DNA of 64,000 nucleotides from a virus (IMGVR_UViG_3300045988_108221:1-64000), one strand, 5' to 3'; numbered from the stretch's first letter, positions 26,138-55,490 are shown. A program made the numbers and translations. Notes: generated by a model not told the origin, from the sequence alone.

Positions 26138-26166
26138 TTGACATAATATATCCTGTAATGTATCAT
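26138..26166 (+). promoter_or_regulatory. Sigma70-type promoter of the plus-strand recombinase operon
   Basis: TTGACA, 17-nt spacer, TATCAT, about 40 nt upstream of the SD AGGAGG. Confidence 0.65.
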
Positions 26167-26206
26167 ATAAGTAGAAATCATGGAAACACACAGGAGGAAA
26201 CATATC

Positions 26207-26737
26207 ATGGCTAATACAACAGAACCAATTAGAAATCTATCAAAAGTCCAAGAAATGAAACAAGCACTAGGGAATGACCGAGATAAAATGTTGTTCACTC
26301 TTGGCATTAACTCTGGTCTCCGCATCAGCGACCTTGTCGGTCTCACAGTCGATGATGTTAAACCAGAGATGGAATTGTATGAACAAAAGACAGGTAAGTT
26401 CAAACGGTTTATGTTATCTAAAGAGGTCTACGCATTGTTATGCGAATACGCAAGCCGATGCAAGCATTGGTTATTTCCAAGTCGCTCTGGTGACGGACAT
26501 ATCTCGACCGTACAAGCGTGGAGGAAAATCAAAGCTGCATCCGTGAAATGTGGTTTAGATAACATCGGTACGCACTCGATGCGTAAAACATTTGGATACC
26601 ATGCGTATCGCAAAGGTGTACCGATTGCGTACCTTATGCAAGTCTTTAATCATTCCTCGGAAGCAATCACAATGCGATACATTGGTATCACAACAGAGGA
26701 ATTAAATACTAAAGTGTATGCCATTATGGCTTTATAA
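26207..26737 (+). CDS. Small tyrosine recombinase (catalytic domain only, FimB/FimE-sized)
   Basis: Candidate catalytic residues: R (GLRISDL), H-x-x-R (THSMRKTF), and H...Y (NHSSEAITMRYI). Start moved to the ATG behind AGGAGGAAACATATC. 176 aa, with no N-terminal arm/core-binding domain. Confidence 0.8.
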   Translation: MANTTEPIRNLSKVQEMKQALGNDRDKMLFTLGINSGLRISDLVGLTVDDVKPEMELYEQKTGKFKRFMLSKEVYALLCEYASRCKHWLFPSRSGDGHISTVQAWRKIKAASVKCGLDNIGTHSMRKTFGYHAYRKGVPIAYLMQVFNHSSEAITMRYIGITTEELNTKVYAIMAL

Positions 26738-26752
26738 CAGGAGGAATCACTT

Positions 26753-27007
26753 ATGATTGCAATTATTTTATTATTACTATTGGTTACCGCAGTTAGTCTT
26801 GCGATTGCATTGGTTGTCGGATGGGTAACATCTCCACGCACCGCAGGTATTCTGTATATTGTTGTCGCTGGCATGTATGGAGCATCCACCGTAAGCAATA
26901 TCGCTGACGGAACTGTCAAGTTTGGTGACTCTTGGTTGGCTTTTGCAATTTGTGCAATTTTTGTCTACCTTGGATTGCGATTTATTGCTGAGTTCCCAGA
27001 GTATTAA
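26753..27007 (+). CDS. Small integral membrane protein (3 TM)
   Basis: SD ACAGGAGGAATCACTT-ATG. Hydrophobic throughout. Co-transcribed with the recombinase. Confidence 0.65.
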   Translation: MIAIILLLLLVTAVSLAIALVVGWVTSPRTAGILYIVVAGMYGASTVSNIADGTVKFGDSWLAFAICAIFVYLGLRFIAEFPEY

Positions 27008-27022
27008 TCACAAAGTCTTTTA

Positions 27023-27072
27023 AAGGGCATACATAGGTTTATATCTTAGGATATATTCTTATGTATGCCCTT
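27023..27072 (+). terminator. Intrinsic terminator of the plus-strand operon
   Basis: AAGGGCATACAT ... ATGTATGCCCTT stem followed by TTTTG. Confidence 0.7.
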
Positions 27073-27181
27073 TTTGTGTTTCTTGGGTTACATCTGTATG
27101 TTTCATTTGTAGTCTCACACGTATGTTAACAGGTTTGGTCTCAAACACAATATCTGACTATAAGGCAAACACGTTAGTGTT

Positions 27182-27268
27182 TATTGTCGAAGACAATCTT
27201 ATAGGTTTAATACTTATGTATTCTTTAGAGTATTCCTTATAGATTGCTTCGCAATATTCCTTACGGAA
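27182..27268. repeat. Three short palindromes in ORF-free DNA
   Basis: ATTGTC-gaa-GACAAT, ATTGC-ttc-GCAAT and ATTCC-ttac-GGAAT. Surrounded by reiterated CTTATAG, TTTCTTAA and CTTTCAA words. Confidence 0.6.
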
Positions 27269-27381
27269 TGTCTTTCAAGTCGGTTTCTTAAGTTTGGGGT
27301 AAAACCTTTTTCAAAAGCTGTTTCTTAAAACTCTTTCAAGAACGCACTTGCTTTCAAACCATAAGTTAAAACTCTCTCTAC

Positions 27382-27410
27382 TTATAGGGTAAAACATTTG
27401 ATTTTTGTAA
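27382..27410 (-). promoter_or_regulatory. Orphan promoter-like element pointing toward the recombinase operon
   Basis: On the minus strand: AAAAAAGTG-TTACAA, 17-18 nt spacer, (C)TATAAG. The A-tract plus TTACAA box recurs upstream of terL (~25447-25483). Confidence 0.35.
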
Positions 27411-27591
27411 CACTTTTTTCTTAAAATTGGATAAATATTTTATTTTACATGGTAAAATTTACCCCTCAAAAATGCCACTCAGCTCAGTAAATATCTGTGT
27501 TTCAAGACTTGAAAAAATTTTTTCCAGTTTATGAGTAAAAAATGCCCCATAAGTCTTAAATCTATAAAATGCGATACAGGATTTTTAACTC

Positions 27592-27886
27592 GCATGGTAC
27601 TAGGCTGGTGTCACACTCCTATGGTAGTGCTTGGGTTGGACGGCATCTGACCCACATGGGATAAAATCGAACGAATGTACGTTGGTAAACACAACCATAG
27701 TATCGTGATGAATTTTCACAAGCACAACACTAGGGTCGTGATTTTGGATGGAAAATAGTTTGGCTGCGGCCTGTAGTTAGTCTGACTAAAAATAAAGCAA
27801 TCACCATCCTATGATGGTGATTAACTATGTTGAAAAATATTGTCCAAACGATACACAGTCCTAGTATTGCATCTCCCTAGTACCAT
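27592..27886. repeat. ~295-bp segment bounded by a perfect 12-bp inverted repeat
   Basis: CATGGTACTAGG (27592-27603) and CCTAGTACCATG (27875-27886). ACTAGG occurs 7 times within 27597-28402. Confidence 0.6.
27798..27821 (-). terminator. Intrinsic terminator inside the IR-bounded segment
   Basis: AATCACCATC-atag-GATGGTGATT followed by GCTTTATTTTT on the minus strand. Confidence 0.55.
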
Positions 27887-28018
27887 GTCACAAACTTATA
27901 ATAACGCTATACTAGGAAAACATACATCAAAAAACATAATCATCATACTAGGGTTTACATATTATAGAAAATCATAAGTTACCTTGTATGCAACCCTAAA
28001 AATTTCTACAAAAATTTT

Positions 28019-28145
28019 AAACGATTGTATATTCGATAGACAACTCAAATTGGAAAATACGATTGTTCCATATGATGTTTCATATCTTAGACAATCTATT
28101 GAAACGATTGTTTTATCGATAGTATTTGCGATTGTTTTCTACATA
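28019..28145. repeat. Iteron-like repeats (A)CGATTGT ... TCGATAG
   Basis: AAACGATTGTATATTCGATAG and AAACGATTGTTTTATCGATAG about 90 bp apart. Half copies at ~28068 and ~28137. Another copy at ~28868. Confidence 0.55.
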
Positions 28146-28367
28146 TGTTATGTGTTTAAATGTATGAAACCATAGATAAAACATGGGTTTGTAGACCATT
28201 GTATGGTGTGTTTTGTATATAGCCATTGTTTGTACTGGGGTATGTTTCTTATGTGTGGACTTAGGTATGCTCTTGGGTTTGTTATGATTATACCGCCCCC
28301 AGCTGAGAATGGTTCTCCCTTTTGGATATTGAAAATTTTCGATACGCTTAGGGGTGTCTCATTGGTT

Positions 28368-28391
28368 CATATGAACATATGTTCACATATG
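28368..28391. promoter_or_regulatory. Palindrome CATATGAACATATGTTCACATATG with a perfect GAAC-N4-GTTC core (Cheo/LexA-box-like)
   Basis: Core GAACATATGTTC at 28373-28384, preceded by AAAATTTTCGATA about 30 bp upstream. Confidence 0.5.
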
Positions 28392-28896
28392 CACCATACT
28401 AGGGTTAGTCAATCAATCGAATAGTATCAATGTAATAGAATATCTAATTGCTTACATTCATTATCACTTGTATTCTCAATATGTAGATGTCATATATTGA
28501 AAACTATCGATATATATGTTTGTACATAGAGTATTCGTTCATGTATCAACTAACGGTTTACAGTTGGGTAACATATGAGTAGATACTCATGTATGCACTA
28601 TATGCATTATACCTATGATTTTAAGTAATGTTTAATATTGGTCTTGGCTGGCGGTGGTTGTAAAATTGTATTTTACACAATGTTTTTTATTTGGGTACAT
28701 CAATAAGGGTTCAAAATTCTGTAGTATCACTCGCCTAAGTCAATGCCATTGTACACCCTACGTACACTACCAAAGTACAACCACATCACAATACAATACG
28801 TTTATACATCTGTTACATACATGAGTAATACATATGTATAAAACAAATAAAAATACAACGATATACAACGATTGTATATAACAGATATATTTACCG

Positions 28897-29000
28897 TTGT
28901 ATGCTCATTTGTATTCGTTGCATATGTTTATATTCGAACGAGATTAAACGCACCGTATAACTCAAATAAATCAATCGTTTATTCTCATTTAGTCGTGCGT
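28897..29000. repeat. Regulatory module copy D
   Basis: GTATGCTCATTT ... CCGTATAACTCAAATAAATCAAT ... TTCTCATTTAG aligns with copies at 29599-29836, 32590-32760, 33281-33470 and 34745-34790. Confidence 0.6.
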
Positions 29001-29026
29001 ATTGATAACGCCTGCGTTATGTGTAG

Positions 29027-29048
29027 CATATGAACATACGTTCATATG
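29027..29048. promoter_or_regulatory. Palindrome CATATGAACATACGTTCATATG with a perfect GAAC-N4-GTTC core
   Basis: Core GAACATACGTTC at 29032-29043. Confidence 0.5.
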
Positions 29049-29091
29049 TTATGTTTGTATGAATGGTTGTTTATATATTGAATATAAATAT

Positions 29092-29120
29092 AAGCGGTAC
29101 AGAAATGATCTGTACCGCTT
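29092..29120 (-). terminator. Intrinsic terminator after 29129..29389
   Basis: AAGCGGTACA-n9-TGTACCGCTT. Member of the recurring GCGGTA...TACCGC hairpin family. Confidence 0.55.
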
Positions 29121-29128
29121 GTTATTGT

Positions 29129-29389
29129 TTACATATAACATTCAACAAGACTTTGCACGGTATCTTTATTTACAGTATCAAGGCTATCCAAATATGTGCT
29201 ATTTGTATGTATAGCTATTAACTTATTTTTATAGCCTTTTTTACTAATAATTTTAAATCTAATTAAATAGTTCCATCCTTCCATATCGTTAAAATATAGG
29301 AATTTTACTGATGTACATTTAATGTTATCAATTAAATGTAGATTTCTTTGTAAAAAGTCAAATAATGCATTATATGTATATGTTTTCAT
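29129..29389 (-). CDS. Hypothetical protein (AT-rich island)
   Basis: Start moved to MKTYTYNALF behind AAGGGGTTATTAAA. Confidence 0.5.
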   Translation of the reverse strand: MKTYTYNALFDFLQRNLHLIDNIKCTSVKFLYFNDMEGWNYLIRFKIISKKGYKNKLIAIHTNSTYLDSLDTVNKDTVQSLVECYM

Positions 29390-29406
29390 TTTAATAACCC
29401 CTTTTC

Positions 29407-29598
29407 TTAACATTCCCAATAATCAACAATATCATTATGGGCAGTAATTAAATCAATCATGTGAAAATATAAATATTCTTTTGAACATTCCCATAACTCA
29501 TTAGAATTATTATTAATAGTTGCCACATCATGAGCGTGATTTATTGCATAATCGATGTACACCATGGATATATACGTTATGAGACTGCCAAAATACAT
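29407..29598 (-). CDS. Hypothetical protein (AT-rich island)
   Basis: 63-aa ORF directly downstream of module A. Confidence 0.4.
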   Translation of the reverse strand: MYFGSLITYISMVYIDYAINHAHDVATINNNSNELWECSKEYLYFHMIDLITAHNDIVDYWEC

Positions 29599-29836
29599 AT
29601 GGTCTAAAAACGCTATATTTGCTTTCTAAGGCGTTTTATATGTTTTACATACAATCATAAGCGAATGTTTTTACACGCACCCTATAGCGTAAAATAACGA
29701 ATGTTTTATTGAGAAATGTTCTCAAAATATATGGATGCCTACGCTGGTGTTCTCATTTAGGATTTCTAATTGAGAATTGCTGCTTAAGGTGTACACGCAA
29801 GAAAAAGCGGTATCTATAAGGATACCGCCGTATAAA
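29599..29836. repeat. Regulatory module copy A
   Basis: Contains TTGAGAA-atg-TTCTCA and TTCTCATTT-n9-AATTGAGAA palindromes, CATACAATCATAAG, and the terminator hairpin of the upstream gene. Confidence 0.65.
29807..29828 (-). terminator. Intrinsic terminator after 29837..30148
   Basis: GCGGTATC-cttata-GATACCGC followed by TTTTTC on the minus strand. Confidence 0.7.
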
Positions 29837-30148
29837 CTATAATTCATTTAGAGTGTTTTTGTAAACCGTGTATAATTCATGTTCAAGGAACGGCAACCAT
29901 CTCCATTTATCCGCTTTGTCTAAAATCCTTTCATTGATAAACACAATTTCAGATATAACATAAGCACGATAATTCATAGTATTTTCGTGTTCCTCTTTTA
30001 CCCTACTAGGGTTATAACCGTAACACTCGGCATCTCGTAAGAAATTTAATAATTTACCTTTATCTTTTGTAGGCTTGCCACTTGTAGCATAATTAGATAC
30101 TACGTTCAATATAGCTTTTTTCGTGTATTCGTTTTTGATAGTAAACAT
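29837..30148 (-). CDS. Hypothetical protein (AT-rich island)
   Basis: 103-aa ORF. No motif recognised. Confidence 0.55.
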   Translation of the reverse strand: MFTIKNEYTKKAILNVVSNYATSGKPTKDKGKLLNFLRDAECYGYNPSRVKEEHENTMNYRAYVISEIVFINERILDKADKWRWLPFLEHELYTVYKNTLNEL

Positions 30149-30178
30149 TATTATATTACCTCTTTTTATTCCTTTCGT

Positions 30179-30568
30179 TTATACGATATAACTACTTGCA
30201 ACGGCGAGCCGTTCGCCGTCAATCATAATCTGAACACCTTTATATAAGTTAATAGGTAGTAAATATCTTTGATGTGTATAACTATAAATATGCTCGTTTT
30301 CATAAATCAAAAATTGCCCTTGATTATTCTGTAATTTAACTTTATATAAATCAAACTTGATATAATACCGCCGTAAAACACGATTATTTTTATCAAGTAA
30401 GATATAAAACTCTTTGCCTTCGCTATCACATGGATAATAAGTGATAGCGTTATCTATTTTATATAGTGTACCATTGTTATATAATCGGTTGCGTTTTTCT
30501 ATTGTGATAGGTTTAAACTCTACCCACTTTAAACCATAATACACTTTTATGTTTTCTACTGTTTTCAT
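30179..30568 (-). CDS. Hypothetical protein (AT-rich island)
   Basis: 129-aa ORF with SD GGAGGGAACAC-ATG. Confidence 0.55.
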   Translation of the reverse strand: MKTVENIKVYYGLKWVEFKPITIEKRNRLYNNGTLYKIDNAITYYPCDSEGKEFYILLDKNNRVLRRYYIKFDLYKVKLQNNQGQFLIYENEHIYSYTHQRYLLPINLYKGVQIMIDGERLAVASSYIV

Positions 30569-30650
30569 GTGTTCCCTCCGATGTGATCACTTATGATTAT
30601 ATTCCACGGTTAAACACAAACGGTATAACCGTGGTTAAAAAATTCTTATG

Positions 30651-30719
30651 TTATAATGTTTGATTGTTTTTCGTGCGTTGAATAAACACGATAATTAAAC
30701 TTAATAAAACTAAAGCCAT
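30651..30719 (-). CDS. Possible 22-aa hydrophobic peptide
   Basis: AAAGGGGAACATATTTAT-ATG. Translation MALVLLSLIIVFIQRTKNNQTL. Confidence 0.25.
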   Translation of the reverse strand: MALVLLSLIIVFIQRTKNNQTL

Positions 30720-30751
30720 ATAAATATGTTCCCCTTTCGATTGATAAGCAA

Positions 30752-31054
30752 CTATAGATATAACTCATCAAGATAATATAGCAAATCAAGATATCTATTG
30801 AGAGACTTTATAAAGTCATTCAAATTGTTGTATTCCTTATGTGTTCCCTTAACAGTAATAAAACAATAATTATTACCTTGCACAAATATATGTATATCGT
30901 AGTCATGATATAATAACGTATGTATTTTATCGTATTCTACATAGCTATAAAACATATAACTTTCTGCATATGTGATAATTTCATAATCTTTTGACATATC
31001 AAATATAAATGCATTTAGGTTTATAATCTTATGTATATTATCTTTTGTTTTCAT
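30752..31054 (-). CDS. Hypothetical protein (AT-rich island)
   Basis: 100-aa ORF with SD AGGGGTGAAAAT-ATG. Confidence 0.55.
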   Translation of the reverse strand: MKTKDNIHKIINLNAFIFDMSKDYEIITYAESYMFYSYVEYDKIHTLLYHDYDIHIFVQGNNYCFITVKGTHKEYNNLNDFIKSLNRYLDLLYYLDELYL

Positions 31055-31064
31055 ATTTTCACCC

Positions 31065-31424
31065 CTAACAATAAACTACAAATGGACTATACATATCTGT
31101 GTATGCAACACATGATTCACAACAAATATTTCTAAATGTTTTTTCATAGTCAATCGATATCCAATACGGTAAATCACCATATAAACCACTTTCATAAAAA
31201 TATAAGTCTATATAATTATAAATATCTGTATAATACCAACAATCACCATTTTTAATATATTCGCTTGACTCGTCAATATTCAAATCTTGACTTAAAATGT
31301 CAAGCATATCCATTTCATATTCTGAAAATTCGTTGATACACTCAAGAAAATCATGCAATCCATCAAGTGTTCCTAACTCGTTTTTATATTGTCGTGCATA
31401 TTGTAACAATGTTATAAATTCCAT
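31065..31424 (-). CDS. ArdA-like antirestriction protein (C-terminal domains only)
   Basis: Very acidic. ESGLYGDLPYWISIDYEKTFRN aligns by eye with the ArdA(Tn916) segment ETGALGEVPASLQNYIDYQAYGRD. Confidence 0.45.
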   Translation of the reverse strand: MEFITLLQYARQYKNELGTLDGLHDFLECINEFSEYEMDMLDILSQDLNIDESSEYIKNGDCWYYTDIYNYIDLYFYESGLYGDLPYWISIDYEKTFRNICCESCVAYTDMYSPFVVYC

Positions 31425-31435
31425 GTTGTACCTCT

Positions 31436-32020
31436 TTAACCGTTAATTTCTGTAATAAGTCCGATATCTTCACCGTCAATAGTAAAATAGTATTGACTAC
31501 AATAATTTATTAATTCCTTTGTATCTAATAAGTCATTATGGTTATTATGATAATGTTCTATAATTAATTCTATATCTTTATCAAAATCATAAAAACTTTG
31601 TTGTAATTTTCTCCATTCGTTCGCAAGTTGTAAACATTCGCTATCAGATAATAAAAGATAATTCTCTAACTTAAAGCCGTTAACATCAAATATTTGATAT
31701 TTTACGTTTTCGCCGTTTATGTCTGCATTAGGTAAAACAAAACGAATAAGCAATGATAATTTTTTATTATCGTTTATAAACATTTCTAAAGCATCACCAT
31801 AATAGCTATATTTATAAAGACATTGATAATGAGTAGTAATATTATATTCTTTTTCTTGTACATTAGATAATAATATCATATCAATAAGTTCGTCAATCAT
31901 TCCATTATGAATGATATTATCAAGCATATTTTTCTTTATTTTATTTTGTACATCAATAGATAATTCATTATATTCATATATATTAATTGTCTTTGTTTCT
32001 GTTTTTGTAATTGTTTTCAT
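31436..32020 (-). CDS. Hypothetical protein (AT-rich island)
   Basis: Start moved to the ATG (MKTITKTE) behind AAGAGGTTAAA. Contains an IYEYNELS motif of the kind seen in conjugative-element leading-region proteins (my recollection only). Confidence 0.5.
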   Translation of the reverse strand: MKTITKTETKTINIYEYNELSIDVQNKIKKNMLDNIIHNGMIDELIDMILLSNVQEKEYNITTHYQCLYKYSYYGDALEMFINDNKKLSLLIRFVLPNADINGENVKYQIFDVNGFKLENYLLLSDSECLQLANEWRKLQQSFYDFDKDIELIIEHYHNNHNDLLDTKELINYCSQYYFTIDGEDIGLITEING

Positions 32021-32021
32021 T

Positions 32022-32288
32022 TTAACCTCTTTCAATAATCATATATAATTCTTCATTATTTACTTTTTCAATGTGTAACGGCGAAAATTTTCGAATAAAT
32101 CTATTTAAGTATTTAGATGTGGTATGAGAATATTTTTCTCTATCTTGATACATTACATCATTTTTACTATCATATACGGCAATCAAAGTATTATAACTTT
32201 GAAAAGCTGTTAGATTTAAACAGATATTAATAATAAATTGATTGGGAACCGTGTTACCCTTACTACTTAACATATTTTGTACTAACAT
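32022..32288 (-). CDS. Hypothetical protein (AT-rich island)
   Basis: 88-aa ORF. Its ATG overlaps the stop of the 39-aa ORF (ATGTTAG). Confidence 0.55.
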   Translation of the reverse strand: MLVQNMLSSKGNTVPNQFIINICLNLTAFQSYNTLIAVYDSKNDVMYQDREKYSHTTSKYLNRFIRKFSPLHIEKVNNEELYMIIERG

Positions 32289-32401
32289 AATTTTTGCCCT
32301 TTCATTCGTTCCAATACGGTATATACTCTATTCATACCGTACACCATAGCCACAGTAAACACCATAGCCAAAACATTTTTTAAAATCATAGATAATTCCA
32401 T
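32282..32401 (-). CDS. Small membrane peptide (39 aa)
   Basis: AAAGGGTGTAGCCT-ATG. Translation MELSMILKNVLAMVFTVAMVYGMNRVYTVLERMKGQKLC. Translationally coupled to the next ORF. Confidence 0.4.
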   Translation of the reverse strand: MELSMILKNVLAMVFTVAMVYGMNRVYTVLERMKGQKLC

Positions 32402-32439
32402 AGGCTACACCCTTTCGATTAAATATATAACCTTTTCTA

Positions 32440-32545
32440 TGGTCTTATTGTACCGCTTAGTAGGTGCAATGTACAATAGTTTTTATCTATGGTTGCCATA
32501 GTTTTAAGCTATGGCGGTACACCATTGAATACCGCTATACAATAG
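32440..32545 (-). promoter_or_regulatory. Promoter/operator module P1 of the island operon
   Basis: On the minus strand: TTGTAC, 18-nt spacer, TACAAT. Upstream CCATAG-n7-CTATGG-n3-CCATAG palindromes. Homologous to 33990-34110. Confidence 0.45.
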
Positions 32546-32589
32546 ATATATATAAATACCACAAAAACACGAATTTGTCAAATTTTAGC

Positions 32590-32760
32590 AAAAACCAAGC
32601 GTAAATGAGAATGTCTCTCAATAAAACGTTTAAATATTTGCGTTCTAAGGTCTGTCTAAAGTCTCCGCCTTATGATTGTATGCAAAAAGTCAAAAACGCC
32701 GTACAACGCAAATAAATCAATTCTAGAGGTATTGTCTAAATGAGAATGACGGTGGTATCT
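32590..32760. repeat. Regulatory module copy B (partly inverted relative to A and C)
   Basis: CTTATGATTGTATG (32669-32682) is the reverse complement of CATACAATCATAAG in A. CCGTACAACGCAAATAAATCAAT is direct relative to C and D. Confidence 0.6.
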
Positions 32761-32952
32761 TTTGTATGCATACATAAGTTATGAATTTGTTTGTCTACAA
32801 TAGACACCGTTGTATATCGAATGTTTTCTATATGTTATTAACAAATATAATCATTATTGACTAATAGCTAAAATTTTCGATATGGTTTACGCAGGCGGTG
32901 GTCGTGCAATATGGTTGTATGCAATCGAATTTCACGCAACGGTTTTTCATCT

Positions 32953-33095
32953 GAATATATGTTCATATGTTCACACATCGGTTATATGAATAAGTTTTCA
33001 TATGAACATACATTCATTTGAAAACATATGAATATATGCTCATGTATTCATTTATTGAACACATGAAAGTATGTTCAATTATTCATATGTTATAA
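32953..33095. repeat. Cluster of degenerate TGAA(C/T)ATATG(T/C)TCA palindromes
   Basis: GAATATATGTTC, GAACATACATTC and GAATATATGCTC, plus TTCATATG words. No perfect GAAC-N4-GTTC here. Confidence 0.5.
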
Positions 33096-33280
33096 TCGGT
33101 TGTATGCAATTTAATTGTGGTATCTCGCAGGATTTACCGTATTGAGAATATTTCTCATTTAAGCTGCGGTATATTGTGATGTCTTCTATAGGCGTACACA
33201 TTCATATGTTTTGTACATAAAAACAAACAAACGCAAAAACACGCAAAAAGTCATATATCATAAAATCGTGTATTTTCGCT

Positions 33281-33470
33281 TGTATGCTCGTTTAGGTGTT
33301 TTATGTACAATCATAAACGGAACATCTGAAAACTGCCGTATAACTCAAATAACGCAACTTTTATTTGAGAACAATTATCAAATACGCTGGCTTTTCTCAT
33401 TTGTAGTATCTAATTGAGAATACGATGGTAAAACAAAAGGCGGTATACCTTAAGTATACCGCCAATGGTT
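33281..33470. repeat. Regulatory module copy C
   Basis: By-eye alignment with module A shows many shared blocks: GTACAATCATAA, CCGTATAACTCAAATAA, TTGAGAA/TTCTCATTT/TTGAGAA, and a terminal GGCGGTATAC hairpin. Confidence 0.65.
33439..33463 (-). terminator. Intrinsic terminator
   Basis: GGCGGTATAC-ttaag-GTATACCGCC followed by TTTTGTTTT on the minus strand. Confidence 0.7.
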
Positions 33471-33571
33471 TATAGGTCTTCTAGTCCCTCTTCTAAGTCT
33501 TTTTTATAATCTTCATCTACGTTATCAAGTAGCGCCTTAATATATTCTTGTTCAACGATAAAATAAAACAT
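33470..33571 (-). CDS. Small acidic protein (33 aa)
   Basis: ACGGAGGATGATCAACTT-ATG. Translation MFYFIVEQEYIKALLDNVDEDYKKDLEEGLEDL. Confidence 0.35.
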   Translation of the reverse strand: MFYFIVEQEYIKALLDNVDEDYKKDLEEGLEDL

Positions 33572-33612
33572 AAGTTGATCATCCTCCGTTATTATTAAGT
33601 GCTTAAAGCGTT

Positions 33613-33632
33613 GGCGGTACATAAGTACCGCC
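33613..33632 (-). terminator. Hairpin after 33641..33934 (weak terminator)
   Basis: GGCGGTAC-ttat-GTACCGCC with no clear T tract. Confidence 0.35.
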
Positions 33633-33640
33633 GTTAGTGT

Positions 33641-33934
33641 TTATCTGAGTGGCTTTTCATCGTGTAGTATGATTTTGGCAACTCGCCAATTATATTGGCT
33701 TAAGTTTACCATGTATTCACTACCGCTTTTTGTACTACCGATTAGGCTTGAATGTTTTTCGCCATCAAAATAATCACAAATTGTGGTGGTTTGATAGATA
33801 CGCTCATTCAATGGATACACTTTAGACCAATTAGATTTACTATATTCAATCTCAATCAAATAAGGCTTTTTTAATAAATATCTGTGTTCCTCTAGGTAGT
33901 CAACTAATTTTGATAAACTAGAAAATTCTTTCAT
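33641..33934 (-). CDS. Hypothetical protein
   Basis: Start moved to MKEFSSLSKL behind AAAGGGGTAAAACTC. Confidence 0.55.
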   Translation of the reverse strand: MKEFSSLSKLVDYLEEHRYLLKKPYLIEIEYSKSNWSKVYPLNERIYQTTTICDYFDGEKHSSLIGSTKSGSEYMVNLSQYNWRVAKIILHDEKPLR

Positions 33935-33989
33935 GAGTTTTACCCCTTTCAATATAAAATTATAAAAGACCTACGAAAGACATTTATCA

Positions 33990-34110
33990 TCTTTCGTTAC
34001 ACTCATTATACACCTAGAGGGGCAATCTGCATAATAGAAAAAATCTATGGATAGTCATAACTTTAAGCTATGGCGGATAACCGCACTCCGCAGGATTTAT
34101 CCATACAATT
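33990..34110 (-). promoter_or_regulatory. Promoter/operator module P2 (homolog of P1)
   Basis: Extended -10 TGTATAAT on the minus strand. ATCTATGG..CATAACTTTAAGCTATGGCGG is shared with P1. 5'UTR hairpin ACGAAAGA-n9-TCTTTCGT. Confidence 0.45.
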
Positions 34111-34139
34111 CTATTGTGTACAACTGAATTTTACGCCGT

Positions 34140-34260
34140 CATATGAATATGTGCTCATATGTTCATGTATCGTTACATGAATGTCTGTTCATATGAACAA
34201 CTGTTCAGATGACAACACATGAACGAATGTTCATATGTTCAAACGCTCATATGATTGAAT
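34140..34260. promoter_or_regulatory. Cluster of TGAACA/TGTTCA palindromes with two perfect GAAC-N4-GTTC cores
   Basis: GAACAACTGTTC (34195-34206) and GAACGAATGTTC (34221-34232), plus several half sites. Confidence 0.5.
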
Positions 34261-34569
34261 ACAATCGAATTGCATGAGACTATATCGAAAGTTTTCACGC
34301 TTTAATCATCTAAAGTATTCGAACTGATTGAAAAAATTCGATTAGTTGCAGGATTTTCGATATACTGCACATCGAAAATTTTCGACCTTTAGTATACTAA
34401 AGTTTTCGATTAGATGGAAAATTTTGAATATATTAAAGTGAACAAATGTTCGCTGGTTGCAGGCGGTCTCGCAGGTCGTGGCGAGCACATGGGCGGTCAA
34501 TATGTAATGCCTTGAAAAAACACACATATGTATTAATATATGAGCGTATATATGTATAAAAATAGGGGT

Positions 34570-35200
34570 GAGATATATATGTATATATACATATATAAAA
34601 TACCGTGGACATATACATATAAATATATACAAATGTAAAAATCCGTGGACAATATCATATATATAAACAATAAAAACCACCGCAGAATTGATTTAAATCG
34701 TTTATACGGTGTGTTTATATCCACGGTGGTATATTTGTATACCACATATGTGAAAACCACCGTACAATGCAAATAAATGAATTTCATGAGATGATGTGGT
34801 CGTATGAACATATGTTCAATCATGGGTATTGCCACGTGGTATCATGGAAGATTAAAAACAAACAAATGTTCGGTTGTTTTTCTCTTAGGCAGCATCCGTG
34901 GTTCGTCAATAGAATACCCCATGAACACACCATAATACACACCAATAGATAAACACATATATCATCGACACATATATACGTTTGTTTAATACCACGATAT
35001 ATATAAATAAAAAAATACCACCGCATAAAACGTGGACACATAACGAACGTATAATGTATAAGCAATATATGCTGCGGATGCACGATTGTTTCATGCAGGT
35101 GTTCGCCATGATTTTTATGCTGTGGTATTTATAATAGACAACAGGTAGTACACGCATAAATGTTAGCTGTATTTAAAATGGTGGTATGATTACCTGTGTG
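34570..35200. repeat. AT-rich iteron field, candidate replication origin
   Basis: (TA)n-like runs plus at least 12 copies of ATACCAC(C/G)G / CCGTGGAC / GGTGGTAT words in both orientations (for example 34601-34610, 34641-34650, 34721-34730). Confidence 0.4.
34806..34817. promoter_or_regulatory. Perfect GAACATATGTTC box
   Basis: Lies within TATGAACATATGTTCAAT inside the iteron field. Confidence 0.45.
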
Positions 35201-35261
35201 CTGTGTTTGGGATGCATCACACAATGTTGGTGTATACATGCACTCATCTGTTGTCATTTAT

Positions 35262-35291
35262 AGAATAACACAAGACGGTTTGTGTTGTCAA
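35262..35291 (-). promoter_or_regulatory. Promoter-like element firing into the ORF-free region
   Basis: On the minus strand: TTGACA, 18-nt spacer, TATTCT. Immediately downstream of phased A-tracts. Confidence 0.4.
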
Positions 35292-35299
35292 TAACCAAT

Positions 35300-35385
35300 G
35301 TGTTTTTCTTGGGTTTTATTTTTTGAAATCTTGTTTTTTATTTTTTGGTTTTTAATTTTTTGGATTTAGGTCATTGGTTTTTGGT
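35300..35385. repeat. Phased A/T tracts (intrinsically bent DNA / UP-like)
   Basis: On the plus strand: TTTTTCTT GGG TTTTATTTTTT G AAATC TTGTTTTTTATTTTTT GG TTTTTAATTTTTT. Confidence 0.55.
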
Positions 35386-35790
35386 TATGCCACATAACTC
35401 TTGGATGGGAAATTCATAGTTCTGTAGACATGATACACCAATATTATTCGTTGACTCGTTGACAAAAACATAGATTGTATTTTTTACATATATCGTCTTT
35501 TCTGTAAATCTAGTGACTACGCCGATATAAACATGTTTATCATTAGACCGTGCAATAGCTGTATCGCCATCTCTGAGATAGCCGTATTTAGTATTTAGCG
35601 TAGTAACAGTCGGTAAATCTTCCACAGATTCATCCACAGACTTCCCATTGAACAACATCGTGCCAGTCGGAATGAAATTTGAAACCTGAGATTCAGGCTT
35701 TAAAAACAATGACTTTAAATATTCGATGTTCTGTGGTGTCACTTCCAGTTTTAATTTTAATGTTCCCATAGAGTCGTTTTTGGTTTTCAT
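35371..35790 (-). CDS. Hypothetical early protein
   Basis: SD GGAGATAATTA-ATG. No motif recognised. Confidence 0.6.
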   Translation of the reverse strand: MKTKNDSMGTLKLKLEVTPQNIEYLKSLFLKPESQVSNFIPTGTMLFNGKSVDESVEDLPTVTTLNTKYGYLRDGDTAIARSNDKHVYIGVVTRFTEKTIYVKNTIYVFVNESTNNIGVSCLQNYEFPIQELCGITKNQ

Positions 35791-36032: not shown

Positions 36033-36776
36033 TTAGACCTCCTGCACGATTTTAAACCACTCTTTGTAAAAGTTGTCATGGACTGCTGCAATAAATACTT
36101 TTTCTTCAAAAGCAGATGTAGTCACACTTTCAACTGTAACTTGTTTTGTTTTTGTCGGAGGAGTTGTTTCAATATTGGCATACAACACTTCTGCTTCGAC
36201 TTCAACTTTAGTACCACTTGGTAATAACGCTGATAATTCATCCACAGTAAAGTCTGTAGTATGATACCATTTGTCTGCTTGTAGAGCAACTCCATGAATT
36301 AATTCCAAGTTTTTATCTGTGGCAAACCATCCGCCGTAGCAATCAACACCATCGTGTTCAACATTACATTCAAAGCCATTGGTTGCATTATCTAGTTGTA
36401 CGACATAACCCTCTGAGAAGTCAACACCACTCATTGGTAAGCGAACAATAGTGCCTGTAAAGTCGTTATATTTTACGATTACACGGTCGCCAATATTAAA
36501 CTTAGACTTTGGTTGCTCCTGTGGTTCATCTGGGTCAACCGTTGGCTGTTCTTGCGTATAATCAAAAGATTTAATCTGATGTGGATACGTTGGCTGTTCT
36601 TGGGTTTCCATCCGTTGTTGCTCCAAAACTTCCACCAGCTTATCTGCATGACGTTTGATATTCATGGCACAACCAAAGTTTTGTCCTTGAATGGCAAACT
36701 TAATGATTGTTCCTTTTAAGAATGAAATAAACTCATCTTTTGTTAGATTTTCTTCGATAATGTCTAATGTTTTCAT
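36033..36776 (-). CDS. Hypothetical protein with DUF3310-like N-terminus
   Basis: Start moved to MKTLDIIEE behind ACAGGAGAAAACAT. FISFLKGTIIKFAIQ...HADKLVEVL resembles DUF3310 (my recollection). Confidence 0.45.
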   Translation of the reverse strand: MKTLDIIEENLTKDEFISFLKGTIIKFAIQGQNFGCAMNIKRHADKLVEVLEQQRMETQEQPTYPHQIKSFDYTQEQPTVDPDEPQEQPKSKFNIGDRVIVKYNDFTGTIVRLPMSGVDFSEGYVVQLDNATNGFECNVEHDGVDCYGGWFATDKNLELIHGVALQADKWYHTTDFTVDELSALLPSGTKVEVEAEVLYANIETTPPTKTKQVTVESVTTSAFEEKVFIAAVHDNFYKEWFKIVQEV

Positions 36777-36789
36777 ATGTTTTCTCCTG

Positions 36790-37104
36790 TTAGTCAATTT
36801 GAGTATATATTATTTTATATCCATCATTAATACATTTCTTAATCTGACATAACTGCTCTACTTGGTCATGGAATATTAATGGGTCTCTTGGGTTAGATAA
36901 TGGACTGCGAGTTAATGTTCCATCTTCGTGAGACTCCAACAAACGTGAAACCAAAGAGCCATCAATAATGTATTCCTCGTTTGGTTGAAAATTACGGAGA
37001 TTATCTCTGAAAAACCCTCCGACATTTCTGTTGTAGATGCTAAAGTGTGCCACAGGAATGACTCTATTGTTTGCAAACACATAAAACTCGTTGTATATGC
37101 CCAT
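36790..37104 (-). CDS. Hypothetical early protein
   Basis: SD ACAGGAGGATTACTA-ATG. TAATG junction with the upstream small ORF. Confidence 0.6.
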   Translation of the reverse strand: MGIYNEFYVFANNRVIPVAHFSIYNRNVGGFFRDNLRNFQPNEEYIIDGSLVSRLLESHEDGTLTRSPLSNPRDPLIFHDQVEQLCQIKKCINDGYKIIYTQID

Positions 37105-43867: not shown

Positions 43868-44224
43868 TTACACCTGCTTTCTGCGATACTCAGTAATAGT
43901 TGTAAGTTCTGGGTACACTTCATACCACTCAAAATCAAATCTTTCGATGGTGTGAATGTCTTCTGAGAATTGCAAACAATGGTATTTATTTGTTTGAACA
44001 TTGTGATAAATCTCTTTATGAACTAAGTGTTCGCCACCAAAGACTTCTTTTTCTTTAACCAACTCATAGTTGCCAAAAGAACAAAACACAATGTTTTCAA
44101 CAATTTCAGTAATATATTGGTTTGGGTTTTCCAACCAATGAATACATACTAAGTCCATATCTTCGATAGACAAACCGTCAACACCATAGTCTGCGTAATG
44201 TTGTAACGCTTGCTCAGTTGTCAT
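43868..44224 (-). CDS. Hypothetical early protein
   Basis: SD ACAGGAGGAAACAA-ATG. Confidence 0.6.
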   Translation of the reverse strand: MTTEQALQHYADYGVDGLSIEDMDLVCIHWLENPNQYITEIVENIVFCSFGNYELVKEKEVFGGEHLVHKEIYHNVQTNKYHCLQFSEDIHTIERFDFEWYEVYPELTTITEYRRKQV

Positions 44225-44915: not shown

Positions 44916-45303
44916 AGTCTTCCTCAAATAACATTTTTGCGATTTCTTCGTCATAACTGAAGCCAAGTAGTCGCAGGATACTATCTTTATCCTTTTCAGT
45001 AAATGCTCTGTGACCGTTCAATTTCAAAGACATATTTGTGAGACTCATCCCAATTCTTGATGCAGCCTTGCTGACACTTAAATTTCGGTCTTTTAACATA
45101 CCTCGTAACATTGTATATCGCTCTTGGTATCGTGTTCCAATGTCTACTTTGAGTCGTGCGAGATATGTTTTGACATCTTCAATATCTTTAAAAGTGTCGT
45201 CTTCTAACACCTTTTGCAATTTTGACAGTAACACCGATGTTTCTTCAAACTTTTTGTAATCTTCTTCAATGACGATACCATTAATTCTTACATGTGTTTT
45301 CAT
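44905..45303 (-). CDS. XRE-type HTH DNA-binding protein
   Basis: Start moved to MKTHVRING behind TTGGAGGAATAT. C-terminal HTH LSVSKAASRIGMSLTNMSLKLNG. Confidence 0.55.
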   Translation of the reverse strand: MKTHVRINGIVIEEDYKKFEETSVLLSKLQKVLEDDTFKDIEDVKTYLARLKVDIGTRYQERYTMLRGMLKDRNLSVSKAASRIGMSLTNMSLKLNGHRAFTEKDKDSILRLLGFSYDEEIAKMLFEEDYED

Positions 45304-55400: not shown

Positions 55401-55490
55401 TGGAGGAAAGTGTGGGATTTGAACCCACGGAACATTTCTGTTCGACAGTTTTCAAGACTGTTGCATTAAACCAAACTCTGCCAACTTTCC
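55401..55490 (-). tRNA. tRNA-Ser (anticodon UGA), CCA encoded
   Basis: Hand-folded: GGAAAGT acceptor, ACAGT-CTTGAAA-ACTGT anticodon arm, long variable arm GAACA-gaaa-TGTTC, T arm GTGGG-TTCAAAT-CCCAC, 3' TCCA. Confidence 0.8.

What the first reader, a model, noticed from the sequence alone, without database searches (positions are those of the whole stretch)
27008..35370. 8.3-kb repeat-dense, poorly coding region in an otherwise gene-packed phage genome
Elsewhere in the window ORFs abut or overlap (ATGA/TAATG junctions), and intergenic DNA is only as large as a promoter or terminator. Three stretches here (27008-29128, 32402-33469, 33953-35370) have no credible ORF on either strand. The only ORFs are short ones or (TA)n-derived low-complexity ones. 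The DNA is clearly not random. At least six word families recur:
- GAAC-N4-GTTC palindromes
- TTGAGAA/TTCTCAA
- CCGTATAACTCAAATAA
- CCATAG palindromes
- AAAATTTTCGATA
- GGTGGTAT/CCGTGGAC

In addition, 100-250 bp modules occur 2-5 times in both orientations. The region sits between the early operons and the recombinase/packaging genes. That position would suit an immunity/origin/partition control region or an array of ncRNA genes. I cannot map the architecture onto any described system.
Basis: seen in the sequence. Interest (0 to 1): 0.75.

Follow-up and report, generated by a model that had tools for sequence, protein, structure and literature searches.

The report
Noncoding control hub of a Veillonella phage
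About 5 kb of truly noncoding DNA, packed with palindromes and repeated control cassettes, sits between the early genes and the packaging genes of an uncultured Veillonella phage family, and it most likely works as a transcription-control and gene-shuffling zone rather than as decayed genes or an array of RNA genes.

Summary
Window 27008-35370 is only about 39% coding, against about 93% elsewhere. GC is 25-34% there, against about 38%. Short inverted repeats are 3.7 times denser than in shuffles.

Relatives (uncultured phages of 64-72 kb; the only genome hit is Veillonella) keep the same three ORF-free stretches. Their substitutions show no codon periodicity, so this is neither decayed coding DNA nor recoded DNA.

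The anatomy is:
- Small minus-strand ORF cassettes that vary in presence and order. They follow two conserved consensus sigma-70 promoters (32582-32553 and 35291-35262).
- Five copies of a clade-specific composite cassette of 180-290 nt. It holds the -10-like box TAYAATCATAAG, operator-like palindromes and a GC-rich bidirectional terminator.
- Arrays of the 22-bp palindrome CATATGAACATATGTTCATATG. Its core equals the Firmicutes LexA box.
- A left stretch whose length is held at 1270-1375 nt while identity falls to about 55%.

No Rfam family matched and there is no covariation, so an array of structured RNAs is not supported.

My best reading is a cis-regulatory, hyperplastic junction between early and late genes, comparable to the PeSL regions of T4-like phages. 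Operator arrays may give it an SOS or repressor input. A transcription-activated origin in 33953-35370 remains a live rival. I rate it a new variant of a known kind, of moderate interest.

The parts
26138..26166 (+). Consensus sigma-70 promoter (TTGACA-17-TATCAT) of the recombinase operon that bounds the region on the left.
   Evidence: Read directly from the sequence.
26208..27007 (+). Operon of a 176-aa tyrosine recombinase that has only the catalytic domain (PF00589), plus an 84-aa ORF.
   Evidence: Variable sites by codon position are 19/6/75, which shows real coding.
27022..27073 (+). 52-nt inverted repeat followed by a T-run. It terminates the recombinase operon. The outer stem sequence is conserved in three clades.
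   Evidence: (I15).
27074..28217 (.). ORF-free spacer whose length is conserved. It holds a conserved hairpin at 27798-27823 (T-run on the minus strand in this clade) and AACGATTGTW direct repeats at 28016-28140.
   Evidence: The distance from the terminator to the Island 1 core is 1270-1375 nt in 24 genomes, at 54-62% identity between clades. Substitutions show no 3-periodicity. Hairpin. Repeats: (D6).
28218..28345 (-). Island 1, the most conserved noncoding block. On the minus strand it reads TCGAAAATTTTC box (28330-28344), palindrome GAGAATGGTTCTC (28305-28317, at about -37 to -25), GC-rich CTGGGGGCGG, then TATAATCATAA (28292-28282).
   Evidence: Alignment of 15 genomes. Present in 8-11 of 14 relatives. 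Clade 3 has AGAACATATGTACC in place of the GAGAA palindrome. Motif statistics.
28371..28386 (.). LexA-box-like palindrome ATGAACATATGTTCAC.
28876..29122 (+). Module A copy 4 (partial). It holds the 17-mer at 28953-28969, a LexA-like box at 29030-29045 and a bidirectional terminator at 29090-29122.
29129..29598 (-). Accessory ORF cassette 1 (96 aa and 63 aa).
29587..29835 (+). Module A copy 1. It holds TACAATCATAA (29650-29660), the palindromes TTGAGAAATGTTCTCAA and TTCTCA-N15-TGAGAA, and a terminator at 29806-29829.
   Evidence: nhmmer gives 159 bits.
29837..32288 (-). Accessory ORF cassette 2 (103, 129, 100, 119, 199 and 88 aa), with GC of 25-29%. TATAATCATAAG at 30601-30590 lies 22 nt upstream of the Shine-Dalgarno site and ATG of ORF 30568.
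   Evidence: The 119-aa family occurs in all 15 genomes. The others vary in presence and order.
32289..32552 (-). Untranslated leader with CTATGG/CCATAG repeats. ARAGORN calls a tRNA-Lys here (32450-32524, + strand), but the Rfam tRNA model does not match.
32553..32582 (-). Strong conserved sigma-70 promoter, TTGACA-17-TATTTA with an extended -10 TG, that drives cassette 2.
   Evidence: It is the most invariant block in an 8-genome alignment.
32583..32769 (-). Module A copy 3. It is followed by the promoter above instead of by a terminator.
   Evidence: nhmmer gives 154 bits.
32857..32886 (+). Promoter-like site (TTGACT-18-TATGGT) whose spacer is the AAAATTTTCGA box. The hexamers are conserved in relatives.
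32944..33091 (.). Palindrome cluster 1, with 5-6 LexA-box-like sites. It ends at an extended -10-like TGTTATAAT (33083-33091, + strand).
33223..33510 (+). Module A copy 2, with TACAATCATAA at 33306-33316 and a terminator at 33439-33463.
   Evidence: nhmmer gives 181 bits.
33470..33952 (-). Accessory ORF cassette 3 (50 aa and 103 aa), with a GC-rich hairpin at 33612-33633.
33973..33997 (-). Terminator-like hairpin immediately upstream of ORF 33952.
34140..34255 (.). Palindrome cluster 2, with about 6 LexA-box-like sites.
34270..34440 (.). Six or seven TCGAAA(A/G)TTTTCGA-like sites, spaced about 20-25 nt apart.
34520..34680 (.). (TA)-rich segment with CCGTGGACA iterons and a 40-nt repeat present 2.1 times. 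It ranks second for lowest duplex stability in the window at both the 60-nt and the 100-nt scale.
   Evidence: The same arrangement of iterons in (TA)-rich DNA occurs in clade 2.
34686..34819 (-). Module A copy 5 (partial, 34686-34787), plus a LexA-like box at 34804-34819.
35262..35390 (-). Strong promoter TTGACA-18-TATTCT (35291-35262) with phased A-tracts upstream (35300-35390). It fires into ORF-free DNA.
   Evidence: The block is present in about 10 of 14 relatives. The strict promoter pattern is found there in some genomes only.

Best explanation
The region is the cis-regulatory, hyperplastic junction between the early/replication genes and the packaging genes of a Veillonella siphophage family.

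Host RNA polymerase starts at two conserved consensus promoters (35291-35262 and 32582-32553, minus strand). It transcribes small AT-rich accessory genes that are arranged as minus-strand cassettes.

The cassettes are separated and insulated by a clade-specific composite module of 180-290 nt. The module holds:
- the -10-like box TAYAATCATAAG, flanked by an inverted pair of 17-mers;
- the palindromes TTGAGAA-N3-4-TTCTCAA and TTCTCA-N15-TGAGAA;
- a GC-rich bidirectional terminator.

The palindromes, the arrays of CATATGAACATATGTTCATATG (core identical to the Firmicutes LexA box) and the TCGAAAATTTTCGA boxes are protein-binding operators. They set when these promoters fire, possibly in response to SOS. 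The same applies to the conserved minus-strand promoter-like Island 1, upstream of the packaging genes.

The conserved modules also supply patches of homology. Through them, cassettes are gained, lost and reordered between related phages.

Shown:
- The DNA is noncoding.
- The modules, both promoters and the terminators are conserved.
- The motifs are confined to the region.
- Cassette content is a mosaic.

Inferred:
- The promoters fire early.
- Which proteins bind the palindromes.
- That LexA is one of them.
- That recombination occurs at the modules.
For: Noncoding status:
- Variable sites by codon position are 19/6/75 in the recombinase gene. In every candidate ORF, and in every 240-nt window of all three stretches, they are flat.
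- The same gaps appear in independent gene calls and in diverged relatives.

Promoters and terminators:
- Two TTGACA-N17-18 promoters with an extended -10 lie on the gene strand. One is invariant across 8 genomes. The other has phased A-tracts and is conserved.
- There are 12 terminator-like hairpins, against 3.8 expected. They sit exactly at cassette ends.

Modules:
- Five copies lie in the window, all inside the region. None occur in distant clades. Each genome has 2-6 copies scoring at least 30 bits, at conserved relative positions.
- TAYAATCATAA occurs 5 times against 0.25 expected, always inside the region. One copy sits 22 nt upstream of a Shine-Dalgarno site plus ATG.

Palindromes look like protein sites rather than RNA stems:
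- The stems are invariant in sequence and show no covariation.
- Uncompensated GAGAA/TTATC variants occur.
- Hairpin 2 appears in either orientation.
- At one fixed position in Island 1, one palindrome type is swapped for another between clades.

Mosaicism:
- Homology with close relatives stops at 29017-29131, at the module A4 terminator, in 5 of 6 cases. Other breaks fall at ORF or promoter boundaries.
- ORF families differ in presence and order between modules.
- The logic matches PeSL cassettes (PMC2839356; PMC4122927).
Against: - Only the A3-type module carries a full sigma-70 promoter. The TAYAATCATAAG box has no -35 at normal spacing.
- Three of the five modules point against the ORFs, so they lie downstream of cassettes rather than upstream as PeSLs do.
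- Module paralogues are only about 67-72% identical, which is weak substrate for homologous exchange.
- LexA-like boxes number 0-13 per genome, and the distant relative L112 has none. The central palindrome unit is absent from 5 of 15 genomes.
- No regulator gene was identified.
- A control function does not by itself explain why 1.3 kb of weakly constrained DNA keeps its length.
- It also does not explain why a strong promoter feeds 1.27 kb of ORF-free DNA.
- There are no transcription or binding data.
Confidence: 0.45

Rival explanations
1. The right ORF-free stretch (33953-35370) is a transcription-activated replication origin. The strong A-tract promoter at 35291-35262 would transcribe through iterons (CCGTGGACA, TCGAAAATTTTCGA and the palindrome cluster) and a (TA)-rich unwinding element. 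That transcription would open or prime the origin, as in lambda ori or the lactococcal phage c2 ori (comparison from my own knowledge).
For: - A strong conserved promoter faces 1.27 kb without an ORF.
- The segment near 34574 ranks second for lowest duplex stability in the window at both the 60-nt and the 100-nt scale.
- CCGTGG-type iterons embedded in (TA)-rich DNA recur colinearly in clade 2. A TACCGTGG-containing repeat occurs 5 times in the ORF-free stretch of the distant relative L112.
- The stretch is noncoding, with few indels, in clade 2.
- The phage encodes its own polymerase, primase and helicase, so it needs an origin somewhere.
Against: - No initiator-like gene lies next to it. The conserved neighbour 36033-36797 models as tandem SH3/Tudor-like barrels.
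- DnaA boxes are not enriched.
- GC skew shows no inflection here beyond what gene orientation gives.
- The replication genes lie 20 kb away.
- In (TA)-rich DNA the same words can be read as -35/-10 pairs.
- The numbers of palindromes and iterons vary widely between relatives.
Confidence: 0.2
2. The region is an array of noncoding RNA genes. These would be RNAs of about 150-350 nt from the TAYAATCATAAG boxes to the GC-rich terminators, an RNA of about 470 nt from Island 1 to the hairpin at 27798, and an RNA of about 1.3 kb from the 35262 promoter. They would act as regulators or decoys.
For: - Pairs of a -10-like box and a terminator sit at plausible spacings and are conserved in about 60 copies.
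- The hairpin at 27798-27823 is conserved, with different stem sequences in different clades.
- The small stem ATTCC-TTAC-GGAAT becomes AAGCC-TTAC-GGCTT between clades.
- Promoter 35262 must transcribe something.
Against: - No Rfam family matched, even at E<5.
- RNAalifold finds only two hairpins in the module, and only the terminator hairpin shows any compensatory change.
- The structure conservation index is at most 0.6 across the left stretch, and high only at the one conserved hairpin.
- T-runs after the GC-rich hairpins are conserved on the minus strand (CCGCC-TTTTGTTTT) but poorly on the plus strand, on which the module RNAs would end.
- Uncompensated stem variants occur.
Confidence: 0.12
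3. The left stretch (27008-29128) is the control leader of the late (packaging) operon. Island 1 would be the late promoter. Transcripts would stop at the hairpins at 27798 and 27073 unless antiterminated. They would then run antisense through the recombinase operon into the small terminase gene at 26102, much like lambda PR'-tR' (comparison from my own knowledge).
For: - No convincing minus-strand promoter lies in the 77-nt gap upstream of the small terminase gene.
- Strict consensus promoters are absent from the whole structural block.
- Island 1 carries a conserved minus-strand -10 with an operator palindrome in the -35 position.
- A conserved hairpin lies about 470 nt downstream of it.
- The arrangement and its length are conserved in 24 genomes.
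Against: - No Q-like, RinA/ArpU-like or sigma-like gene was detected.
- In clade 2 the T-run of the conserved hairpin is on the other strand.
- A leader of about 2.2 kb that crosses an opposing operon would be unusual.
- There are no transcript data.
Confidence: 0.1
4. The region holds the packaging start (pac) or the physical genome ends with terminal repeats. The repeats would be terminase binding sites, or injection or end signals, as in the noncoding repeat region of the T5 terminal repeat (comparison from my own knowledge).
For: - The region lies next to the terminase genes.
- Direct repeats of the type (A/C)GATTGTAT occur in the left stretch of all three clades, and in related form in L112.
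- All 6 circular assemblies, and many linear contigs, break inside the region.
Against: - Contig ends are scattered over 27.8-36 kb rather than at one coordinate. Hypervariability that breaks assembly graphs explains this better.
- The closest characterised large terminases are Mu-like headful enzymes at 33-36% identity. That argues against fixed ends, though weakly.
- The terminal overlaps are only k-mer sized, 55 or 127 nt.
Confidence: 0.08
5. The ORF-free stretches are decayed genes or selectively neutral filler.
For: - In close relatives, 27074-28179 is 84-88% identical. That is about the same as third codon positions of the large terminase gene (82-89%).
- 28481-28899 evolves faster still.
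Against: - The stretches are ORF-free in three clades and in a relative whose large terminase is only 64% identical.
- The length is held at 1270-1375 nt.
- Conserved islands and motif families lie within them.
- Inverted repeats are 3.7 times denser than in shuffles.
Confidence: 0.03

Closest known systems
PeSL (promoter-early stem-loop) regulatory cassettes in the hyperplastic regions of T4-like phages (PMC2839356, PMC4122927)
   Same: - Repeated composite promoter/terminator cassettes are concentrated in an AT-rich zone of small orphan genes.
- The cassettes are conserved while the genes between them are inserted, deleted or replaced.
- Breaks in homology fall at the cassettes.
   Different: - The modules here are 2-3 times longer and carry extra operator-like palindromes.
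- Only one type has a full sigma-70 promoter.
- Three of the five point against the ORFs.
- There are only 2-6 copies per genome, at fixed relative positions.
- The paralogues are about 70% identical.
- Kilobases of ORF-free DNA accompany them.
- The host is a diderm Firmicute and the phage is siphovirus-like.
- Mini-circles were not tested.
LexA (Cheo/SOS box) control of phage switches, such as Bacillus tectivirus GIL01 or coliphage 186 tum (my own knowledge)
   Same: - The palindrome core GAACATATGTTC equals the Firmicutes LexA consensus GAAC-N4-GTTC.
- The boxes lie in intergenic control DNA, next to -10-like elements.
   Different: - The sites are 22-bp extended palindromes, in arrays of 5-6.
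- The copy number is 0-13 between close relatives.
- Overlap with a mapped promoter has not been shown.
- The host LexA specificity was not checked.
- The phage has a lytic-type replication module, and no lysogeny genes were found in the window.
Iteron plus AT-rich, transcription-activated phage origins (lambda ori, lactococcal c2 ori) (my own knowledge)
   Same: - There are clusters of palindromic or direct iterons.
- A very AT-rich, low-stability segment lies beside them.
- A strong promoter reads into ORF-free DNA.
   Different: - No adjacent initiator gene was found.
- Iteron numbers vary.
- The stretch is about 1.3 kb rather than 0.3-0.6 kb.
- Function was not tested.
Noncoding repeat/palindrome region in the first-step-transfer terminal repeat of phage T5 (my own knowledge)
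   Same: A kb-scale, ORF-free stretch rich in repeats and palindromes lies beside small early genes in a large siphovirus.
   Different: - There is no evidence of long terminal repeats or fixed ends here.
- The large terminase is nearest to Mu-like headful enzymes.
- The sequences are unrelated.

Membership tests
PeSL-type mobile regulatory cassette | Contains a strong sigma-70-like early promoter. | tested here: inconclusive
   The A3-type copy is followed by a conserved TTGACA-17-TATTTA with an extended -10 TG. The other copies have only the -10-like box TAYAATCATAAG, with no -35 at 16-19 nt.
PeSL-type mobile regulatory cassette | Contains an adjacent stem-loop that acts as a terminator. | tested here: met
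   GC-rich hairpins GGCGGTA..TACCGCC with T-runs end the long copies. One pair in the hairpin shows compensatory changes. Terminator function itself was not assayed.
PeSL-type mobile regulatory cassette | Sits immediately upstream of the orphan ORF it drives, in the same orientation. | tested here: not met
   Copies A1, A2 and A4 are on the plus strand, converging on minus-strand ORFs. Only A3 is co-oriented with its cassette.
PeSL-type mobile regulatory cassette | Indels and replacements between related phages are bounded by the cassettes. | tested here: met
   Homology with 5 of 6 close relatives ends at 29017-29131, at the module A4 terminator. Other breaks fall at ORF or promoter edges. 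The conservation profile and the ORF-family maps agree.
PeSL-type mobile regulatory cassette | Recombination between cassettes produces mini-circles. | not testable with these tools
   This needs inverse PCR on infected cells.
LexA (SOS box) operator of Firmicutes | The palindrome GAAC-N4-GTTC. | tested here: met
   Six exact sites lie in the region, against 1.0 expected for the whole window. The consensus of 54 sites in 13 of the 15 genomes is CATATGAACATATGTTCATATG.
LexA (SOS box) operator of Firmicutes | The box overlaps the -35/-10 or the start site of the regulated promoter. | tested here: inconclusive
   -10-like hexamers lie next to boxes 29030 and 33063. No start sites are known, and in AT-rich DNA such hexamers are frequent.
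LexA (SOS box) operator of Firmicutes | The host LexA recognises this motif. | not tested
A literature search found nothing usable.
LexA (SOS box) operator of Firmicutes | The sites are conserved in orthologous positions in relatives that infect the same host. | tested here: inconclusive
   The box after module A4 recurs in most genomes. Totals range from 0 to 13. In Island 1 the box is present in some clades and replaced in others.
Iteron-type, transcription-activated replication origin | At least 3 iterons next to an AT-rich unwinding element. | tested here: met
   34140-34680 holds palindrome cluster 2, six or seven TCGAAAATTTTCGA-like sites and CCGTGGACA repeats in (TA)-rich DNA. That (TA)-rich DNA ranks second for lowest duplex stability at both the 60-nt and the 100-nt scale.
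Iteron-type, transcription-activated replication origin | A promoter directs transcription into the origin. | tested here: met
   35291-35262 (minus strand), with phased A-tracts. This rests on sequence only.
Iteron-type, transcription-activated replication origin | A cognate initiator gene lies adjacent to or overlaps the origin. | tested here: not met
   The neighbouring genes have no Pfam, PHROG or PDB match. The model of 36033-36797 is SH3/Tudor-like.
Iteron-type, transcription-activated replication origin | The fragment supports replication. | not testable with these tools
   This needs plasmid-replication or marker-frequency assays.
Structured ncRNA family / tRNA | Matches a curated covariance model. 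| tested here: not met
   No Rfam hit reached gathering score in the region. Only chance miRNA-like palindrome hits appeared at E<5. The ARAGORN tRNA-Lys at 32450-32524 is not matched by RF00005.
Structured ncRNA family / tRNA | Base pairs are supported by compensatory change. | tested here: not met
   Among 18 module copies, 13 pairs are predicted. The hairpin-2 stem is invariant, and only two terminator pairs show compensatory change. The structure conservation index is at most 0.6 in the left stretch.
Terminal-repeat / physical end region (T5- or SPO1-like) | Fixed genome ends or long direct terminal repeats lie at this locus. | tested here: inconclusive
   Contig breaks are scattered across the region and the overlaps are k-mer sized. 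The large terminase is nearest to Mu-like headful enzymes. No read data were available.

The most novel reading that the evidence does not exclude
The phage family maintains kilobases of length-constrained, untranslated DNA as a working part. Two readings of this remain open. In the first, the DNA is a scaffold that gathers or titrates host LexA and several phage DNA-binding proteins. The arrays of up to 13 near-consensus LexA boxes would then act as a LexA sink that reshapes the host SOS response during infection. In the second, the DNA is the template for long unstructured regulatory or decoy RNAs made from the A-tract promoter and from Island 1. Either would be a kind of phage function that is not encoded as protein and has not been described for phages of Negativicutes.
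Probability: 0.12. Interest if true: 0.8.

Novelty: new variant of a known kind. Interest (0 to 1): 0.5.

Why it matters
Tailed-phage genomes are normally more than 90% coding. Here a family that is abundant in human-associated metagenomes (355 homologue clusters of one neighbouring gene, all on contigs no longer than about 71 kb, many of 62-71 kb) devotes about 7% of its genome to conserved noncoding DNA.

If the model holds, three things follow:
- It gives a map of early promoters, terminators and operator sets for phages of Veillonella, a host with almost no phage genetics.
- It extends the idea of gene shuffling through regulatory cassettes from T4-like myoviruses to an unrelated siphovirus lineage.
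- It points to a testable link between infection and the host SOS system.

The conserved modules are also practical markers and safe insertion sites for engineering these phages. The region explains why assemblies of this family break where they do.

Tried and rejected
- Known RNA families: none matched. Only palindrome-driven miRNA-like chance hits appeared.
- tRNA: ARAGORN's tRNA-Lys at 32450-32524 is not supported by Rfam and is not conserved outside the close clade.
- Similar DNA elsewhere: megablast and blastn against phages and plasmids found no match.
- DnaA boxes: not enriched.
- Tandem arrays (ToxI-like or CRISPR-like): only trivial repeats.
- Coding in another genetic code, or decayed genes: rejected because substitutions show no 3-periodicity in any stretch.
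- Structured long RNA in the left stretch: sliding RNAalifold found only one conserved hairpin. My shuffle z-scores were invalid because the shuffles folded to zero energy, so I used only energies and the structure conservation index.
- Invertible switch driven by the neighbouring small recombinase: the order and orientation of modules and of the segment between them are the same in all relatives. There is therefore no evidence of inversion.
- MITE-like mobile element: the copies sit at syntenic positions and lack terminal inverted repeats.
- Physical genome ends inferred from contig ends: the ends are scattered, and the overlaps of 55 or 127 nt are assembly k-mers.
- Spread of the 16-mer palindrome across IMG/VR: only 13 stretches, which is uninformative.
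- Function of neighbouring or internal proteins: Pfam, PHROGs, PDB and one AlphaFold/Foldseek run gave no regulator or initiator.
- Homologue search for the universal 119-aa ORF: it found only itself.
- Literature on Veillonella phages or Veillonella LexA: nothing usable.

Full report
CONTEXT

The window is most of a phage genome of about 68.7 kb (source contig of 68,656 nt).

Minus-strand genes at 64000->35371 encode:
- a primase, a DnaB-like helicase, exonucleases, a dNMP kinase and a dUTPase;
- three DNA methyltransferases and ThyX;
- a YadA-like adhesin.

Minus-strand genes at 26102->1926 are a putative small terminase subunit, then the large terminase, the portal and the tail genes. A DNA polymerase fragment lies on the plus strand at 24-1793.

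The large terminase is only 33-36% identical to any deposited phage. Its nearest relatives are Mu-like enzymes. The only hit among 185,579 species genomes is Veillonella sp. 3310, at 64%. With the YadA-type adhesin, that points to Veillonella as the host.

IMG/VR holds about 30 relatives of 64-72 kb. Several are circular assemblies.

Yes.
- Credible genes cover about 39% of 27008-35370. Even a permissive ORF measure gives 56%, against 93% elsewhere.
- An independent gene caller leaves the same three gaps.
- GC falls to 0.25-0.34.
- Short inverted repeats number 168 in 4958 noncoding bases. Shuffles give 45 +/- 9.
CCATAG and GGTGGTAT/CCGTGGAC are only modestly enriched.
- Modules of 100-300 nt in both orientations exist.

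IS IT DECAYED OR HIDDEN CODING DNA?

No. I rebuilt the recombinase-to-ThyX segment for 14 relatives.
- In the recombinase gene, variable sites fall 19/6/75 by codon position.
- Every candidate ORF, and every 240-nt window of the left, middle and right stretches, is flat. That excludes coding in any genetic code.
- The stretches are ORF-free in three clades.
- A relative with only 64% terminase identity also has an ORF-free, repeat-dense stretch beside the recombinase operon. It uses partly different words.
- The distance from the recombinase-operon terminator to the Island 1 core is 1270-1375 nt in 24 genomes. Identity between clades is only 54-62%.
- Among close relatives the bulk of this spacer changes about as fast as third codon positions. 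So length and a few islands are constrained, not most of the sequence.

ANATOMY

(a) Two consensus sigma-70 promoters lie on the gene strand.
- 32582-32553 is the most invariant block of the middle stretch across 8 genomes.
- 35291-35262 has phased A-tracts upstream and is conserved in most relatives.
- The first drives the cassette 32288->29837. The second fires into 1.27 kb without an ORF, ending at a terminator-like hairpin (33997-33973) just before ORF 33952.

(b) GC-rich hairpins of the form GGCGGTA..TACCGCC sit at each cassette end. There are 12 terminator-like sites, against 3.8 expected.

(c) Module A has five copies: 28876-28990+, 29587-29835+, 32769-32475-, 33223-33510+ and 34787-34686-.
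- All lie inside the region. The module is absent from distant clades.
- Each genome has 2-6 copies scoring at least 30 bits, at conserved relative positions.
- Its parts, in order: the 17-mer TTATTTGCGTTGTACGG; TAYAATCATAAG; the inverted 17-mer CCGTAYAACnCAAATAA; TTGAGAA-N3-4-TTCTCAA; TTCTCA-N15-TGAGAA; and a terminator.
- TAYAATCATAA occurs 5 times, against 0.25 expected. One copy sits 22 nt upstream of a Shine-Dalgarno site plus ATG. Another lies on the minus strand of Island 1.

(d) Island 1 (28218-28345) is the best-conserved noncoding block.
- On the minus strand a palindrome occupies about -37 to -25 of TATAAT.
- Clade 3 carries AGAACATATGTACC where the other clades carry GAGAATGGTTCTC. 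That looks like an operator swap.

(e) There are 14 palindromes with the core GAAC-N4-GTTC. Their family consensus is CATATGAACATATGTTCATATG. Two arrays of 5-6 sites lie at 32944-33091 and 34140-34255.

(f) Further word families:
- TCGAAAATTTTCGA-like boxes.
- AACGATTGTW direct repeats. A related form occurs in L112.
- CCGTGGACA iterons in (TA)-rich DNA, also present in clade 2.

RNA OR DNA ELEMENTS?

- No Rfam family matched.
- RNAalifold on 18 module copies predicts only hairpin 2 and the terminator. The hairpin-2 stem is invariant in sequence, with no compensatory change.
- Uncompensated GAGAA/TTATC variants occur, and hairpin 2 appears in either orientation.
- The left stretch has one conserved hairpin and a low structure conservation index.
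- These facts favour protein-binding DNA sites over structured RNAs. Unstructured transcripts are not excluded.

GENE CONTENT AND MOSAICISM

- The internal ORFs are small, acidic, rich in Tyr and Asn, and without known function. One carries DUF8033.
- One family (31065-31424) is in all 15 genomes. The others differ in presence and order, and the window itself is rearranged.
- Homology with close relatives ends at the module A4 terminator in 5 of 6 cases, and at ORF or promoter edges elsewhere.
- The conservation profile shows islands at the modules, with replaced DNA between them.
- The central unit A3-palindromes-A2 is missing from 5 of 15 genomes. It is therefore dispensable.

INTERPRETATION

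The best-supported reading is a cis-regulatory, hyperplastic junction between early and late genes.
- Host-polymerase promoters drive accessory cassettes.
- Composite modules insulate the cassettes and offer homology for exchange.
- Several operator families give regulatory input. One has the core of the Firmicutes LexA box (my own knowledge, not tested on the host).
- In logic this resembles the PeSL cassettes of T4-like phages (PMC2839356, PMC4122927). One PeSL feature fails: most modules point against the ORFs. I therefore call it PeSL-like, not a member.

What stays unexplained:
- the length-constrained spacer of 1.3 kb;
- the promoter-fed stretch of 1.27 kb.

For the promoter-fed stretch, an origin activated by transcription is a serious rival, given its iterons, its low-stability (TA)-rich DNA and its promoter. 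No initiator gene lies beside it, however.

For the left stretch, a late-operon leader with antitermination, or a pac site, is possible.

Contig breaks inside the region are scattered and are best explained by hypervariability.

VERDICT

This is a real, conserved and unusual noncoding hub. It is a new variant of known kinds of phage control and plasticity regions. No new mechanism has been demonstrated. Interest 0.5.

Noticed in passing
45349-46779 (-): The phage carries a gene for a YadA-like trimeric autotransporter adhesin (stalk, anchor and head repeats). This is an outer-membrane adhesin carried by a phage of a diderm Firmicute.
   Followed up: partly
24-1793 (+): The DNA polymerase fragment has an internal segment (about residues 150-250) that matches HNH homing endonucleases. 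This suggests an inserted endonuclease or intein-like element.
   Followed up: no
26138-26737 (+): The tyrosine recombinase is only 176 aa, essentially the catalytic domain alone. It has a near-perfect sigma-70 promoter and is 86-99% conserved across the close relatives. No target site was identified.
   Followed up: partly
Relatives L001-L020 and L113-L143: All six circular IMG/VR assemblies of this family, and many linear ones, are cut inside the equivalent of 27008-35370. The cut coordinates are scattered. Strain-level hypervariability breaking the assembly graphs is the likely cause.
   Followed up: partly
L112:6400-8300 (Veillonella sp. 3310, NZ_RQVJ01000003.1): A relative with 64% terminase identity lies inside a 232-kb bacterial contig, so it looks like a prophage. 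Its ORF-free stretch beside the recombinase carries about 12 CTATAGAT(T/A) repeats and five TATAGGGGTATACCGTGG repeats, and no LexA-like boxes.
   Followed up: partly
36033-36797 (-): This conserved neighbour gene has 355 homologue clusters, all without annotation and all on contigs no longer than about 71 kb (many of 62-71 kb). The AlphaFold model (pLDDT 72) shows an N-terminal helical part plus tandem SH3/Tudor/CAP-Gly-like barrels.
   Followed up: yes
44214-44966, 57816-58604 and 61965-62693 (-): One 68-kb genome carries three DNA methyltransferase genes. This suggests heavy investment in evading restriction.
   Followed up: no
55401-55679 (-): Two tRNA-Ser genes (anticodons TGA and GCT) are confirmed by both ARAGORN and Rfam.
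   Followed up: no
On the minus strand they are followed by a conserved TTTTGTTTT.
   Followed up: partly
27240-27256: The small stem-loop ATTCC-TTAC-GGAAT becomes AAGCC-TTAC-GGCTT in clade 2. The loop is conserved and the stem change is compensated. It is the only clear covariation seen in the left stretch apart from the hairpin at 27798.
   Followed up: no
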